A stretch of DNA of 64,000 bases from a virus (lineage: Duplodnaviria; Caudoviricetes): the IMG/VR virus record IMGVR_UViG_3300028914_000064, positions 32,001 to 96,000 of that record; one strand, given 5' to 3'. A model generated the notes under the pieces. That model had not been told where the DNA came from. It did not search any database and saw nothing but the letters and a program-made list of their open reading frames with translations. Below are positions 3,974 to 13,431 of the stretch, piece by piece. How positions within the stretch are numbered: position 1 is the stretch's first letter; each line of letters opens with the position of its first letter. The position numbers and the translations under genes were made by a program.

Positions 3974-5452
3974 ATGTACGGACCGCATACAAAGGAAGAC
4001 TTCAAGCTTTTTCTCAAAGATGTAGAGGACTGTAAGAGATTAAGTGGAAAATCGGAATATGATTTTAGATTAAGAAGAAGGACATTAAATGTTGTTTGGA
4101 TGATTACTGATTCTCTTAGAGAGATTCCATTTGAAGAACTAATGAGTAATATGTATTTTAAATGTTCCGATGATATGAAACCAATCTTAAATTTTTATGA
4201 AGACTGTCTTATTGATAGCAAACTTAATAATGATCAATTTAGATTGAAATTACATGATCGATTATTGGTTTTTCGTGATAAGATTAAAGCTGAGCACAAG
4301 CAATGTATTTTAGTTGAATTTTTTAACATATTGACACAAGCTTGTATAAGAAAAGATTATTCTAAACCTATAATTAAAAAGATATTCAGTGCATATCTTT
4401 CTTTAGTACAACAAAGCATTACATATTTTTATGATGATATTCATAAATATTTTTATGCAGTAAAAGATGATGGAACATTTTTAACAATAGATGATCCTTG
4501 GCCTATGATTGATTGGGCTCATGAAGAGTATGCTGATAAGACATTTAAAAGCATAGTAGAAGGAAAGGAAATTGATACAAAAAGGCTATTAGAAGAAACT
4601 AAGAAGAGATATGCGAAATATGGAATGATAGTTCATGATGTCGAAGATATGATCCAGATAAGCACGATTTCTAATAATTTTGGAAATGTAACAGCGTCTA
4701 TGGCTTATTATATGTCTGAGCAGACCAAGGATATGCTTCCTCAAAATGAAGTGGGGCTTAAAATTGAAAGCAATCCAAAAAAATGGTTGAATACAGAGTA
4801 TTATAAAGAGAGACTGCTTAAGAGAAATTTTGCATTGCCCGGATGCATAAAAACAACATGTGAATTTGCGGGAGATATTAAGGAAGTATATTTTAGAGAA
4901 GTTATCAAAGATGACAATGTTGTTATGCTTTATAGAGTAGTGACAAAAACTAGGGGAGAATATTCGGATATTCCAGGTTATTATATTCCTAATGAAAAGT
5001 TTATGTTTTTGTATTACAACGTTGCTGAAGGAGCAAGAGAAGAAAGTTCAATTATAGAAAATTTTATCTTGGAATTATATTTTCTTCTTACTGTTAGGCG
5101 TACTGAAGAAGAAAAACAAATGAAACCTTATTCGTTACCACTTATTGCAGAAGAGTATGAAGATGTTTATAAGGAACCAAGATGGAAAAATCAACCGATA
5201 ATATCCTTCTCTTTATATGGGCGAGAAGAAAAGAAAGGAAGGGAACAAAAAAGAGCGTATAAACAAGGTGTTTATGAATATGATGATGCCAAAATTGGAT
5301 GTTTTATAAGAAGATTACCTGTAGGACAGACAGCTTCTTGGGAAGCAATAACAAATGCTGCTAAATATGGGTATGAGCTTGAAAAAGGATATACATTTGT
5401 TACACCATTTGCTAGAAAACAACGTCACATAAAAGTCTTAGGAGGACTATGA
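3974..5452 (+). CDS. Hypothetical phage protein (492 aa)
   Basis: Long ORF with SD GGAGG; no confident family. Confidence 0.85.
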   Translation: MYGPHTKEDFKLFLKDVEDCKRLSGKSEYDFRLRRRTLNVVWMITDSLREIPFEELMSNMYFKCSDDMKPILNFYEDCLIDSKLNNDQFRLKLHDRLLVFRDKIKAEHKQCILVEFFNILTQACIRKDYSKPIIKKIFSAYLSLVQQSITYFYDDIHKYFYAVKDDGTFLTIDDPWPMIDWAHEEYADKTFKSIVEGKEIDTKRLLEETKKRYAKYGMIVHDVEDMIQISTISNNFGNVTASMAYYMSEQTKDMLPQNEVGLKIESNPKKWLNTEYYKERLLKRNFALPGCIKTTCEFAGDIKEVYFREVIKDDNVVMLYRVVTKTRGEYSDIPGYYIPNEKFMFLYYNVAEGAREESSIIENFILELYFLLTVRRTEEEKQMKPYSLPLIAEEYEDVYKEPRWKNQPIISFSLYGREEKKGREQKRAYKQGVYEYDDAKIGCFIRRLPVGQTASWEAITNAAKYGYELEKGYTFVTPFARKQRHIKVLGGL

Positions 5453-5934
5453 AAACAGAGTATATTCATTACGGATTTTCTGAATTGTTACCCATAAAAC
5501 CGATTAGAAATGAAAGAAATTTTTGGAAGCCTCAAGGGGGATTATGGGCAAGCCCAGTAGATTCTCCTTTAAGTTGGAATATATGGTGTGAAAGTAATCA
5601 TTTTAGAAAAAATGAATTAGGGAATTCTTTTATGTTCACATTGAAAAATGATGCTAAGATAATTCATATATATAGTGTGGATGATTTAAAAGGACTACCA
5701 AGACAAACTACTAACATTTCATTTTTTAATGATCATGCTTGTTATTTGGACTTTGAAAAAATTGAAAAAGAATATGATGGTATTGAATTACATCTATCTG
5801 AGGAACGTTTTGGAGATTCAAAAAATGGAGATGGAATTCATTATGGATTATATTTTACGTTGTATGGATGGGATTGTGATTCTATCATACTTTTTCATAA
5901 TAAAGCAATAGAAAAATGGTGGAAATCGCGATAG
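5449..5934 (+). CDS. Conserved hypothetical phage protein (KPxGGLWAS...YDGI...GWDCDS)
   Basis: ATGA overlap with upstream gene, SD GGAGG. Confidence 0.8.
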   Translation: MKTEYIHYGFSELLPIKPIRNERNFWKPQGGLWASPVDSPLSWNIWCESNHFRKNELGNSFMFTLKNDAKIIHIYSVDDLKGLPRQTTNISFFNDHACYLDFEKIEKEYDGIELHLSEERFGDSKNGDGIHYGLYFTLYGWDCDSIILFHNKAIEKWWKSR

Positions 5935-11292: not shown

Positions 11293-12459
11293 ATGATTAA
11301 ATCTATGAAAGTAATGTTACTTCCTAACAACGTTCAAAAGACAAGGCTATTCCAACACGCAGGAGCGGCAAGATTTCTTTATAATTGGGCTCTTTCAATG
11401 GAAGAAAAGAATTATAAATTAGGCGGAAAATTCATATCATATTATGAGCTTGCAAAAGAACTTACAGAGCTTAAGAGAACAGATGAATATGCATGGCTTA
11501 ACGAAATATCAATCACAACATGCCAAAAGGCTATAAAAGATGCCTGTGATGCCTATTCTAACTTTTTTAAGAAAAGGGCAAAATTTCCCAAATATAAATC
11601 AAAGGATAAGACAAAACCAAGTTTCTTTCAGACAGACCAGGTTATAGAATTTACCGATACACATGTAAAGCTAAGTTGTTTGTCCCTTAGCAGGAAGGCA
11701 AATAGAAAACAATTAAACTGGGTAAGACTTGCAGAACATGGCAAGATACCAATAAATGTAAAGCATAGCAATCCGAGGATAACTTACGATGGTCTTAATT
11801 GGTGGATAAGCGTAGGGATAGAATATCCTGATAAGAATGTAAACTTATCTGAAGAAGGATTAGGTGTTGATCTAGGAATAAGGAACCTTGCTGTGTGTTC
11901 TGATGATAGCATTTATCCTAACATCAATAAGACCAAGGCGATCAAAGATTTAGAGAAGAGAAAACGAAGATTGCAACGAAGTATATCCAGGAAATATGAG
12001 ATGAACAAAAAGGGGGATGAATTTGTAAAGACAAAAAATATAATAAAAGATGAAAAAAAGTTATTAAAGATGCACCACAGGTTGAGTAATATTAGGAAAA
12101 ACTATTTACATCATACATCAAAAGAAATAGTTGAAAAGAATCCTAAATTCATCTGTATTGACGACCTAAATATTCAGAGCATGATGAAGAATAAATACCT
12201 TGCAAAAGCAATTCAGGAACAGTCACTTTATGAATTTTCAAGGCAGCTTGAATATAAGAGTAATTTCAAAGGAATCCAATTTATAAAAGCAGACAGGAAA
12301 TTTCCATCATCTAAGAAATGCAGTCAATGTGGCAGGATAAAGAAAGATTTAAAACCTTATCAAAAGACATATAAGTGTGAGTGTGGAAATGTTATTGATG
12401 TACATAAGCAAGCGGCGCTCAATCTTAAAACATATGGAGAAGAGAATATTGCAGAATAA
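11293..12459 (+). CDS. tnpB: IS607-type TnpB / Cas12f-like RNA-guided protein with degenerate RuvC (D193, E->D290, D->H371)
   Basis: N-terminal HTH (AGAARFLYNWAL), RuvC-I GVDLG, RuvC-II ICIDDL instead of IxIEDL, Zn finger CSQC/CEC, RuvC-III IDVHKQAALNL instead of IDRDxNAAxNL. Confidence 0.92.
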   Translation: MIKSMKVMLLPNNVQKTRLFQHAGAARFLYNWALSMEEKNYKLGGKFISYYELAKELTELKRTDEYAWLNEISITTCQKAIKDACDAYSNFFKKRAKFPKYKSKDKTKPSFFQTDQVIEFTDTHVKLSCLSLSRKANRKQLNWVRLAEHGKIPINVKHSNPRITYDGLNWWISVGIEYPDKNVNLSEEGLGVDLGIRNLAVCSDDSIYPNINKTKAIKDLEKRKRRLQRSISRKYEMNKKGDEFVKTKNIIKDEKKLLKMHHRLSNIRKNYLHHTSKEIVEKNPKFICIDDLNIQSMMKNKYLAKAIQEQSLYEFSRQLEYKSNFKGIQFIKADRKFPSSKKCSQCGRIKKDLKPYQKTYKCECGNVIDVHKQAALNLKTYGEENIAE

Positions 12460-12634
12460 TATTATTGTACCGAAAGCTGGTTCGGGAATTTACGCCTATG
12501 GAGAGTACTTGAACTTGTTAGTAGACAGCACCATCGTCGAAAGCATACTCGATGAAATAGGAATGGATCATAAAAGTATATCTTTTTATAAGTATTCAGC
12601 CGGGATTTAGTCCCTTGCATCTTATGAATTTGAC
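12460..12634 (+). ncRNA. omegaRNA/reRNA-like scaffold extended by a hairpin and anti-repeat (candidate tracrRNA)
   Basis: Stems CCGAA/TTCGG, CCTAT/ATAGG, GAGTA/TACTC; loop GCTG can pair with CAGC (12597-12600); IS607-like end ...CGG; TTGCATCTTATGAATTT (12615-12631) is complementary to the repeat 3' half. Confidence 0.7.
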
Positions 12635-12934
12635 CTTTTAGAAGTATGTAAATTTGCATGGGTGTAAAGCCAGTGACTTTCTTTGCTTTGTATCCAGTAT
12701 CTTTTAGAAGTATGTAAATTTGCATGGGTGTAAAGCAGAAAAGGCTGTCAGCTACGTTAAATCCATCTTTTAGAAGTATGTAAATTTGCATGGGTGTAAA
12801 GCTTACAGACATGTCACCTTGTTCATAAAGTTCTTTTAGAAGTATGTAATTTTATATGGGTGTAAAGCAAGAAGTCACATTGAAACTATATTCGGATACT
12901 TTTAGAAGCATGTGATTTTATATGGGTGTAAAGT
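12635..12934 (+). CRISPR. CRISPR array: 5 repeats (36 nt, CTTTTAGAAGTATGTAAATTTGCATGGGTGTAAAGC) and 4 spacers (30 nt)
   Basis: Repeats start at 12635, 12701, 12767, 12833, 12899 (66-nt period). First three are identical, last two degenerate. Plus orientation inferred from degeneration polarity and G:U-compatible hairpin. Confidence 0.95.
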
Positions 12935-12957
12935 ATTGATGGCTATGTGAGGATTTC

Positions 12958-13215
12958 ATAGATGCAAAGCGTCTTTTTGAGAAAATAACTAAAAGGCGGG
13001 CAATAGATGCAAAGCCCTCTCGCTTGCTATGTAATGCGTGACTATTATGGATGCAAAGTTGAAGTGTTTCAGAGTTAAAAGAAATAAGCTTGGGAACAAA
13101 TTATTAGCAGATATTGCTTTTAGGAGCCAAAACACCAAACCTGTTATTGTATACCTCTAACAAGGCTCCTAAAAGCTTATCAAGATGCAAAGCTAGACTA
13201 TAATGGATTCAAAGT
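12958..13215 (+). repeat. Mini-repeats ATRGATGCAAAG(C/T) resembling the CRISPR repeat 3' end
   Basis: Copies at 12958, 13003, 13047 (45/44-nt period); partial copies at 13182 and 13203. Confidence 0.65.
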
Positions 13216-13248: not shown

Positions 13249-13431
13249 ATGGGGATAGAAGGACTTAAGTTAATAATATGCTTACTTAGCATAAATGTGA
13301 TGATTATAGCTTTTTTGATGTTAAAAACTATTCTATTGCAGAAACGAATGCTCAATATTATTGAAGATATTTTAAATAGACAAAAAAATATATTTAAAGA
13401 TTTTTTAGATATTGATAATGAAGGAAGTTAA
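13249..13431 (+). CDS. Small membrane protein
   Basis: SD GGAGGGG; N-terminal TM helix. Confidence 0.6.
   Translation: MGIEGLKLIICLLSINVMIIAFLMLKTILLQKRMLNIIEDILNRQKNIFKDFLDIDNEGS

What the first reader, a model, noticed from the sequence alone, without database searches (positions are those of the whole stretch)
12935..13215. Second, cryptic array of ~13-nt mini-repeats after the CRISPR trailer
Seen: ATAGATGCAAAGC (12958, 13003), ATGGATGCAAAGT (13047), AAGATGCAAAGC (13182) and ATGGATTCAAAGT (13203). The first three are separated by 32 and 31 unique nt, which is spacer-sized. The motif equals the repeat 3' end (ATGGGTGTAAAGC) with G->A and T->C changes that turn G:U pairs with the anti-repeat TTGCATCT into Watson-Crick pairs. 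TTCATAGATGCAA matches the anti-repeat with a single bulge. Inference: these are minimal, fixed guides keeping only the tracr-pairing handle, possibly for conserved regulatory targets. CRISPR finders would miss them.
Basis: partly seen in the sequence, partly recalled or inferred. Interest (0 to 1): 0.75.

Follow-up and report, generated by a model that had tools for sequence, protein, structure and literature searches.

The report
Eroded CRISPR repeats that keep their handle
Behind a phage's small CRISPR array lies a trail of worn-down old repeats of which only the last 7-11 letters survive in every relative: the piece next to each guide, which matches the tail of the helper RNA. This shows which part of the repeat matters, but no targets were found for the leftover guides.

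Summary
Four copies of GATGCAAAG plus one variant lie at 12958-13215, all on the array strand, where about 0.1 is expected. Seven related phage lineages carry 4-11 such copies in the same place.

It is not a second array. In relatives, canonical 36-nt repeats grade into full-length variants ending AGATGCAAAGC, then into 5'-eroded stumps. The mini-repeats are therefore the oldest, leader-distal units of the same array.

Only the spacer-proximal 7-11 nt (consensus ARATGCAAAGC) is kept, about five times more often than any other part of the repeat. Across lineages this piece persists while the sequence between copies drifts.

The "fixed guides for conserved targets" idea is not supported. The guides are not conserved between lineage groups, spacing varies from 18 to 149 nt, and four mini-guides gave no IMG/VR match. 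Two regular spacers do have perfect matches.

The effector is an IS607-type TnpB derivative with its RuvC-III Asp replaced by His, so it may bind DNA without cutting.

Best reading: relic units whose handle is still under selection, probably still docking on tracrRNA and effector. Transcription could not be tested.

The parts
11293..12459 (+). 388-aa TnpB-derived effector of IS607 / RAGATH-18 type. RuvC positions are D193, D290 (Glu in array-less relatives) and H371 (catalytic Asp in ISFba1 and ISDra2 TnpB).
   Evidence: Pfam HTH_OrfB_IS605, OrfB_IS605 and Cas12f1-like_TNB. Best solved relative 8iaz, E 9e-70. Residue alignments. ISFba1 active site D194/E290/D371, from PMC11061315.
12460..12634 (+). 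omegaRNA-derived tracrRNA. Stem 1 is 12470-12485 with loop 12476-12480. The RAGATH-18 core is 12495-12563. The pseudoknot strand is 12596-12600. A small hairpin is at 12602-12614.
   Evidence: Rfam RF03064, 64.4 bits. Alignment of 11 loci. The pseudoknot is assigned by analogy to PK2 of the ISFba1 reRNA and by comparison with array-less relatives.
12612..12623 (+). Invariant tracr tail segment (CCCTTGCATCTT). Its core 12615-12622 is the perfect complement of the mini-repeat core AGATGCAA.
   Evidence: Identical in 10 of 11 loci, one C>T in L036, while the next 12 nt vary. Duplex energies of copies 1-4 are in the best 1% of genomic 16-mers.
12635..12934 (+). CRISPR array proper. Five 36-nt repeats start at 12635, 12701, 12767, 12833 and 12899, with four 30-nt spacers. 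Repeats 4 and 5 are already variants.
   Evidence: the repeat finder. Spacer 2 (12737-12766) matches another phage contig 30/30, at L099:252-281.
12943..12970 (+). Mini-repeat 1. It is a 5'-truncated degenerate repeat that abuts repeat 5 with almost no spacer. The handle is 12958-12970.
   Evidence: Sequence. Homologous units in L013 and L076. Tail duplex -14.6 kcal/mol, best 0.03% of background.
13003..13015 (+). Mini-repeat 2 (handle only). It is followed by a 31-nt guide-like stretch, 13016-13046, that is conserved in L013 and L076.
13047..13059 (+). Mini-repeat 3 (handle only).
13110..13181 (+). Conserved long hairpin. The 5' arm (13116-13128) looks like the 5' end of a repeat and the 3' arm is 13164-13176. 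With mini-repeat 4 it forms one expanded repeat unit.
   Evidence: RNAalifold on 6 lineages gives 17 pairs, 5 of them with compensatory changes.
13182..13193 (+). Mini-repeat 4. It directly follows the hairpin and is present at the homologous place in every lineage.
13203..13215 (+). Mini-repeat 5, a decayed copy (G>T in the core) with weak tail complementarity. Its downstream sequence is the 5' UTR and ribosome-binding site of the next gene (13249-13431).
   Evidence: -5.3 kcal/mol, not better than background.

Best explanation
The mini-repeats are the oldest, leader-distal units of the one CRISPR array that belongs to this phage's TnpB-derived effector. New units enter at the tracr-proximal end. 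As units age, the 5' 25 nt of the repeat are lost or scrambled. Those 25 nt are needed at most for copying the first repeat and for an internal hairpin. The 7-11 nt that abut the spacer (consensus ARATGCAAAGC) are kept. This piece is the ancestral form of the repeat's 3' end. It is the complement of the invariant tracr tail that follows the scaffold's last pseudoknot. My inference is that tail and handle pair in trans, which places whatever follows the handle where an omegaRNA guide would start, so a handle alone is a sufficient crRNA module. Read-through of the pre-crRNA would then yield handle-only, crRNA-like units that still dock on tracrRNA and effector. The handles are conserved between lineages and the guides behind them are not. 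I therefore think the handles are kept for a role that does not depend on the guide (occupying or titrating tracrRNA and effector, or marking processing sites at the end of the transcript), or as carriers of short-lived leftover guides. They are probably not fixed regulators. Shown: the anatomy, the gradient, the strand bias, the selective retention and the complementarity. Inferred: transcription, docking and any effect.
For: A gradient from canonical repeats to full-length AGATGCAAAGC variants to stumps is seen in L001-L003, L013, L018, L036 and L076. Spacers shared between relatives are distal and unique ones are tracr-proximal, which fixes the polarity. The heptamer occurs 4-11 times per trailer, always on the + strand, against 0.3 per kb background. 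In post-hairpin segments it occurs 3-4 times against 0.03-0.06 in shuffles, 0 of 5000 reaching the observed count. The last two 7-mers of the repeat occur 43 and 48 times in six trailers, against 0-25 (median about 8) for all other repeat 7-mers. A logo of 46 distinct units shows information decaying 5'-wards and nothing conserved downstream. The 6-mers shared by all three lineage groups are almost only handle-derived. L036 and the L001 group keep TGCAAAGC in four homologous units while the sequence between them is about 50-75% identical by eye. The tail 12612-12623 is invariant in a variable context. Handles 1-4 pair with the tail at -11.4 to -14.6 kcal/mol, in the best 1% of background. The 13 nt upstream of the core add complementarity: -8.9 against -6.1 kcal/mol, n=46. 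Variation in active repeats at the three most polymorphic tail-facing positions is only A/G opposite U and C/U opposite G. PK2 next to the guide is essential in the ISFba1 reRNA. The tail lies just 3' of the homologous strand here.
Against: In close pairs the handle is not significantly better conserved than its surroundings: 12 of 155 core positions changed against 129 of 1077 elsewhere, and there is no difference for the 11-nt handle. Deep alignments are biased towards aligning shared 7-mers. Some copies are tandem duplicates, which inflates the counts. Today's active repeats pair with the tail no better than shuffled repeats, fraction 0.04-0.62, so the tail is not proven to be the working anti-repeat. 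The repeat can also fold on itself, 88.9% paired. The window itself has lost most post-hairpin copies, so they are dispensable.
Confidence: 0.55

Rival explanations
1. The units are minimal, fixed guides that keep only the tracr-pairing handle and steer the effector to conserved regulatory targets in host or phage.
For: The handle is retained and complements the tail. One guide-like stretch (13016-13046) is 30-31/31 identical in window, L013 and L076. Another is about 80% conserved over its first 16 nt (13/16 by eye) between L036 and the L001 group. The effector lacks the canonical RuvC-III Asp, and a relative tolerates a perfect self-match, which fits a binding-only regulator. TnpB can bind DNA with 10-nt guides without cutting (PMC13507860).
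Against: Guides behind homologous handles differ completely between lineage groups. Spacing falls to 18-30 nt. No seed match of more than 10 nt for any of the five mini-guides was found in the phage's own 126 kb. The only longer prefix match, 13 nt, belongs to the remnant after repeat 5. There were no IMG/VR matches for four mini-guides. The window trailer gave no hits in 401 Lachnospiraceae genomes. The conserved stretches are shared only by close relatives, where neutral identity is expected.
Confidence: 0.12
2. The units are pure fossils. The trailer is dead array sequence, and the excess of 3' ends comes from deletion bias and tandem duplication, not from selection.
For: Close-pair substitution rates do not differ significantly. 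There are clear tandem duplicates of 28-nt units. The window has lost several copies without visible damage. The whole trailer has no unusual folding energy, z -0.26.
Against: There is a five-fold excess of the last 7-mers over all other repeat parts in six lineages. Perfect heptamers are kept in order in lineage groups whose intervening sequence is saturated. Conservation extends 4 nt upstream of the search-defined core in the tail-complementary direction.
Confidence: 0.2
3. The function is at the DNA level. The heptamers are operator or iteron-like protein-binding sites that control the small membrane-protein gene downstream (13249-13431).
For: Short conserved motifs in an otherwise drifting intergenic region just upstream of a conserved gene are the usual signature of binding sites. 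A promoter-like pair, TTATCA-16-TATAAT, spans copy 4.
Against: The motif is continuous with the CRISPR repeats through every intermediate. All copies are in the direction of the array. The promoter-like site is not conserved in relatives and the promoter count equals chance, 14 against 13.6. Other copies in the genome lie in unrelated places.
Confidence: 0.06
4. The units are a primordial array. They are short units born as duplications of the omegaRNA 3' end plus guide, recording the birth of the array before 36-nt repeats existed.
For: They are the oldest units by position. The system sits at the TnpB-to-CRISPR transition, with a RAGATH-18 scaffold and array-less relatives at 60% identity.
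Against: Intermediate units are full-length 36-nt repeats with scattered point changes, which is decay and not growth. The ancestral omegaRNA end (..CAGTAACGG) is still present in modified form inside the tracr and is not the handle.
Confidence: 0.04

Closest known systems
Degenerate terminal (trailer-end) repeats of CRISPR arrays
   Same: They lie at the leader-distal end, are the oldest units, have mutated repeats and are inherited vertically among relatives.
   Different: Usually one or two repeats are affected. Here 5-12 units persist. They are eroded from the 5' side only, and the spacer-proximal 7-11 nt is kept across lineages whose intervening sequence is saturated.
Delocalized / atypical crRNAs of type V-K and I-F CRISPR-associated transposons (review PMC11656645)
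   Same: They are encoded outside the regular array, with repeats that only partly match it, followed by a spacer-like sequence.
   Different: CAST units carry one conserved guide to a conserved homing site and serve a transposase. Here there is no transposase, there are many units, and the guides are not conserved.
crRNA-like regulatory RNAs: CreA/CreR and crlRNAs (bioRxiv 10.1101/2023.03.03.530964 and 10.1101/2023.03.10.532045)
   Same: They are degenerate mini-CRISPR units next to a cas locus that could load the effector.
   Different: Those have a guide partly matching a promoter of cas or toxin genes beside a PAM. No such match was found here.
TranC, transposon-CRISPR intermediates, including the phage-borne CauTranC9 (bioRxiv 10.64898/2026.03.27.714800)
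   Same: A TnpB-sized effector sits next to a short array of 36-38-nt repeats in a Caudoviricetes genome. There are no adaptation genes, and the spacers are aimed at phages.
   Different: Sequence identity to CauTranC9 could not be checked because no supplement is held. That protein is reported as active, whereas this one lacks the canonical RuvC-III Asp. No trail of handle-only units is described there.
IS607 TnpB with RAGATH-18-derived reRNA (ISFba1, PDB 8iaz; PMC11061315)
   Same: It is the closest solved relative (E 9e-70). It has the same RNA core and a pseudoknot next to the guide.
   Different: ISFba1 has one fixed guide fused to the scaffold and an intact D194/E290/D371 site. Here the guide is supplied from an array, and positions 290 and 371 are Asp and His.
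TldR, TnpB-like nuclease-dead repressors, some phage-borne (bioRxiv 10.1101/2023.11.30.569447)
   Same: It is a TnpB derivative with a damaged RuvC site in phages, and so a possible binding-only mode.
   Different: TldRs use one adjacent guide RNA against a host promoter. Here there is a turning-over CRISPR array, and the zinc-finger / C-terminal region is intact.

Membership tests
CRISPR array (distal, degenerate part) | Direct repeats related to the array's repeat, on the same strand and contiguous with it | tested here: met
   Continuous gradient in relatives. All copies lie on the + strand.
CRISPR array (distal, degenerate part) | Unique sequences between repeats, of spacer-like and regular length | tested here: not met
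   The sequences are unique, but lengths range from 11 to over 100 nt, and some units are tandem duplicates.
TranC / TnpB-derived type V system | TnpB-like effector next to a CRISPR array, with a tracrRNA derived from the transposon's right-end RNA | tested here: met
   Pfam, RAGATH-18, array, and array-less TnpB relatives with a fused guide.
TranC / TnpB-derived type V system | Intact RuvC D-E-D catalytic triad and DNA cleavage | tested here: not met
   E290D in all but one lineage, and D371H in all 8 array-linked sequences that could be aligned (L036 was unreadable at these columns). D371A abolishes cleavage in ISFba1. Cleavage itself is not testable here.
crRNA-like regulators (CreA/CreR/crlRNA) | Guide with partial match to a promoter of a cas or associated gene, next to a PAM | tested here: not met
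   No mini-guide prefix match of more than 10 nt in the 126-kb genome.
crRNA-like regulators (CreA/CreR/crlRNA) | Guide conserved among relatives | tested here: not met
   Guides are unalignable between lineage groups.
Delocalized crRNA of CASTs | Truncated or atypical repeat that keeps the part needed for effector loading | tested here: inconclusive
   The tail-complementary handle is kept. Loading was not tested.
Delocalized crRNA of CASTs | Linked Tn7-like transposase and a conserved homing target | tested here: not met
   No conserved homing guide: the guides are not conserved between lineages. No large transposase-sized ORF lies beside the locus (ORF list), but neighbouring ORFs were not searched for Tn7-like genes beyond the six small ones scanned in Pfam.
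TldR | Two or more RuvC triad positions changed, with the rest of the fold intact | tested here: inconclusive
   Two positions are changed, but one change is the conservative E>D. Alternate catalytic positions are known in this family.
Viral solitary repeat units / RNA anti-CRISPRs | Repeat identical to the host's own CRISPR repeat | not tested
   The host is unknown.

The most novel reading that the evidence does not exclude
A phage-borne IS607-TnpB derivative that no longer cuts DNA works as a natural CRISPR-interference system. The 7-11-nt handle is by itself a sufficient crRNA module that pairs in trans with the tracr tail. The trail of handle-only units is then a working set of short guides or decoys that tunes the effector or the downstream gene. 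This would make it the smallest natural crRNA handle known and a living intermediate between omegaRNA and CRISPR.
Probability: 0.15. Interest if true: 0.8.

Novelty: new variant of a known kind. Interest (0 to 1): 0.5.

Why it matters
The erosion pattern is a natural deletion scan. It marks the last 7-11 nt of the repeat, and the tracr tail opposite it, as the only repeat part that evolution keeps in this very small TnpB-derived system. That gives a directly testable design for a minimal guide RNA. It also bears on how a transposon's fused guide RNA was split into tracrRNA and crRNA. If the handles are bound, they would add a guide-independent, crRNA-like layer to a phage-borne and possibly binding-only RNA-guided system. 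If they are not bound, this is a well-documented case of asymmetric array decay.

Tried and rejected
1. A 12-bp match between the repeat 3' end and 12489-12500 (RNAduplex -22.7 kcal/mol) was rejected. It overlaps the RAGATH-18 outer stem, which covaries between window and L001. It is significant only in the window (0.017) and not in six other lineages.

2. The internal repeat hairpin (columns 19-24 with 29-34) is 88.9% paired, but its covariation is no better than shuffles, 310 of 500. It is kept as a possibility only.

3. The tail against today's active repeats is not better than shuffled repeats.

4. The whole-trailer fold has z -0.26. There are no terminator-like sites, and promoter-like sites are at the chance level.

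5. Target searches:
- BLAST of array plus trailer against 50,697 phage records gave nothing meaningful.
- IMG/VR exact scans found no protospacer for spacer 3, the L001 duplicated spacer or four mini-guides. Three scans (S3, ms1, ms2) and the L013-unit scan found nothing at all; the other two hit only the source arrays themselves.
- 401 Lachnospiraceae genomes gave no hit, and that search had no positive control.

6. TAM: the three protospacer flanks share no motif.

7. Close-pair substitution tests were not significant.

8. No Cas1 was found in the 126-kb record.

10. The supplement with the CauTranC9 sequence is not held.

Full report
OBSERVATION. The pattern ATRGATGCAAAGY with up to one mismatch occurs 5 times in the 64-kb window against 0.67 expected, and no shuffle reaches 5. 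GATGCAAAG occurs 6 times against 0.79 expected, 4 of them within 12961-13192. In the whole 126-kb phage genome the heptamer G[CT]AAAG[CT] occurs at 0.3 per kb per strand. The 316-nt trailer holds 4 copies on the + strand and none on the - strand. The gaps of 32 and 31 nt are as stated.

CONTEXT. The gene at 11293-12459 encodes a 388-aa TnpB-type protein with Pfam domains HTH_OrfB_IS605, OrfB_IS605 and Cas12f1-like_TNB. Its closest solved relative is chain 8iaz, E 9e-70. I identify 8iaz as the ISFba1 IS607 TnpB of PMC11061315, based on the D371A mutant described there and the alanine seen at that place in the chain.

The 175 nt after the stop codon contain a full RAGATH-18 RNA at 12495-12563, 64 bits. 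That is the core of the reRNA of IS607 TnpBs. Five 36-nt repeats with 30-nt spacers follow at 12635-12934.

Relatives at 61% identity or less are ordinary TnpBs without arrays. Their RNA ends in ..CAGTAACGG directly before the guide.

In the ISFba1 structure the last five scaffold nucleotides pair with the loop of the first stem. This is PK2, which is needed for complex formation. In the array-less relatives I read that pair as CGUUA with UAACG. In the window it is GCUGG (12476-12480) with UCAGC (12596-12600), a compensated change (my reading of the sequences). The tracr is therefore a complete scaffold. What follows it, a small hairpin at 12602-14 and then the tail, lies where the guide used to start.

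RELATIVES. Seven distinct lineages with 80-97% identical effectors were recovered from IMG/VR, metagenomes and one mis-binned MAG contig. The two lineage groups are window/L013/L076 and L001-L003/L034. L018 and L036 stand alone. All have the array followed by the same kind of trailer.

In L002, for example, canonical repeats are followed in order by these units:
- a full-length repeat ending AGATGCAAAGC
- a 36-nt unit with a scrambled 5' half
- another full-length variant
- units that keep 18, 12, 9 and finally 7 nt of the 3' end

Distances between successive 3' ends fall from 66 to 18-53 nt. Spacers shared between relatives are distal and unique ones lie next to the tracr, so new units enter at the tracr side and the trailer is the oldest part.

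The window's copy 1 is itself a 28-nt degenerate repeat that abuts repeat 5. The trailers of window, L013 and L076 are homologous. The window has a 65-nt deletion after copy 1 and has lost the units that all other lineages carry after the hairpin. The finding is therefore the eroded end of the same array, not a second array.

SELECTIVE RETENTION. If old repeats decayed evenly, all parts of the repeat would survive equally. They do not. The last two 7-mers of the repeat occur 43 and 48 times (up to 1 mismatch) in six trailers, while the other 28 positions give 0-25, median about 8.

Forty-six distinct units give the consensus ARATGCAAAGC. Beyond the heptamer used for the search, position -8 is T in 37 units, -9 is A in 38, -10 is G in 25 (A in 15) and -11 is A in 28. 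Positions +1 to +12 carry no information.

In the segment after the hairpin, each lineage has 3-4 perfect heptamers against 0.03-0.06 in shuffles, 0 of 5000 reaching the observed count. The 6-mers shared by all three lineage groups are almost only pieces of the handle. L036 and the L001 group keep TGCAAAGC in four homologous units, while I read the sequence between them as about 50-75% identical.

Three caveats apply. In close pairs the core is changed at 12 of 155 positions against 129 of 1077 elsewhere, which is the right direction but not significant. Deep alignments favour shared words. Some units are tandem duplicates.

WHAT THE KEPT PIECE IS. The tail segment 12612-12623 is identical in 10 of 11 loci, although the next 12 nt vary. 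Its core, 12615-12622, is the exact complement of AGATGCAA.

Copies 1-4 pair with the tail at -11.4 to -14.6 kcal/mol. That is within the best 1% of random genomic 16-mers, and copy 1 is within 0.03%. Copy 5 is no better than background. Over 46 units, the 13 nt upstream of the core add complementarity: -8.9 against -6.1 kcal/mol for the same core with random upstream sequence. The units are not independent.

Among 24 distinct full repeats, the three most variable tail-facing positions show only A/G opposite U and C/U opposite G (my count).

Against this, today's active repeats as a whole pair with the tail no better than shuffled repeats. The repeat's 3' half can also fold on itself, 88.9% paired, with covariation not above shuffles. 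The tail carries the same letters as the 5' strand of that internal hairpin. A unit that has lost its own 5' strand could therefore use the tail in trans. This is my model; it is not shown.

A rival partner at 12489-12500 was rejected.

GUIDES. Window spacer 2 matches another phage contig 30/30, at L099:252-281. L002 spacer 5 matches the L003 phage 27/30. L002 spacer 1 matches the L001 phage and its own genome 31/31. The array is therefore a real, phage-directed CRISPR.

For the mini-guides nothing was found:
- no mini-guide prefix match of more than 10 nt in the phage's own genome
- no IMG/VR match for four of them beyond their own loci
- no hit for the window's array plus trailer in cultured phages or in 401 Lachnospiraceae genomes

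Behind homologous handles the sequences of different lineage groups are unrelated. This argues against fixed guides for conserved targets.

EFFECTOR. The ISFba1 active site is D194, E290, D371, and D371A kills cleavage. All 8 array-linked sequences that could be aligned have His at 371 (IDVH or IDIH where array-less relatives have IDRD); L036 was unreadable at these columns. All but L018 have Asp at 290. The TldR study warns that catalytic residues can move within this family, so loss of cleavage is likely but not certain. A binding-only effector would explain the tolerated perfect self-match in L002.

No Cas1 is encoded in the record.

MECHANISM AND RIVALS. Most likely (0.55), the trailer is read through with the array. 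The handles still pair with the tracr tail and dock on the effector. They are kept for that reason and not for their guides. Possible roles are decoys or titrators, processing marks at the transcript's end, or carriers of short-lived leftover guides.

Rivals are:
- pure fossils (0.2)
- DNA-level operators for the gene at 13249 (0.06)
- a primordial array (0.04)

A conserved hairpin with five compensated pairs forms, together with copy 4, one expanded repeat unit present in all lineages.

COMPARISON AND VERDICT. The closest known things are degenerate terminal repeats, the delocalized crRNAs of CASTs, crRNA-like regulators, TranC systems including a phage-borne one, IS607 TnpB and TldRs. None of these describes a multi-unit trail of 5'-eroded repeats that keep only the spacer-proximal handle.

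I rate it a new variant of a known kind, of moderate interest. The functional claim rests on conservation and complementarity only.

Noticed in passing
window 11293-12459 (residues 290 and 371): All array-linked relatives that could be aligned have His in place of the catalytic RuvC-III Asp (ISFba1 D371). All but L018 have Asp in place of the RuvC-II Glu. Array-less relatives keep E and DRD. The effector may bind DNA without cutting.
   Followed up: partly
L002:5378-5407; target at L107:302-331 (own genome G405:46745-46775): The first spacer of a related phage's array matches that phage's own genome 31/31, inside a 56-aa ORF. It also matches the L001 phage perfectly. The L003 phage has 4 mismatches at the 5' end. 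The 5' flank (GCATGAC) differs from that of the other protospacers.
   Followed up: partly
window 12737-12766; target L099:252-281: Spacer 2 matches a 45-kb IMG/VR phage contig 30/30, apparently within coding sequence (by eye; ORFs were not called in L099), with 5' flank TTTTTAA. The three protospacer flanks found give no common TAM.
   Followed up: partly
window 13110-13181: A long hairpin is conserved in six lineages with 5 compensated pairs and a conserved loop motif (ACACCAAAC). Its 3' arm also complements the 5' end of every CRISPR repeat, so it could cap the array's end or act as a second anti-repeat.
   Followed up: partly
window 12476-12480 with 12596-12600: The pseudoknot next to the old guide position has changed on both strands relative to array-less relatives: CGUUA/UAACG has become GCUGG/UCAGC. 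The tracr therefore keeps the full omegaRNA fold.
   Followed up: partly
L001:5379-5408 and 5773-5802; L014 and L017 arrays: Spacers are duplicated within arrays: L001 spacers 1 and 7, L014 spacers 3/5 and 4/6, L017 spacers 1/2. The duplicated L001 spacer contains the handle motif itself. No protospacer was found for it.
   Followed up: partly
window 13177-13204: A promoter-like pair, TTATCA-16-TATAAT, spans mini-repeat 4 and lies 45 nt upstream of the next gene. The -10 box is not conserved in relatives.
   Followed up: no
L013:2028-2054, L076:5118-5144 and 5171-5197, L002:6176-6201, L018:4753-4779: The first unit after the hairpin (..GGTCAAWAGCAAAGY) complements both ends of the tracr tail (UUUGACC and UUGC) as if the middle of the anti-repeat were looped out. 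It is conserved in all lineages except the window.
   Followed up: no
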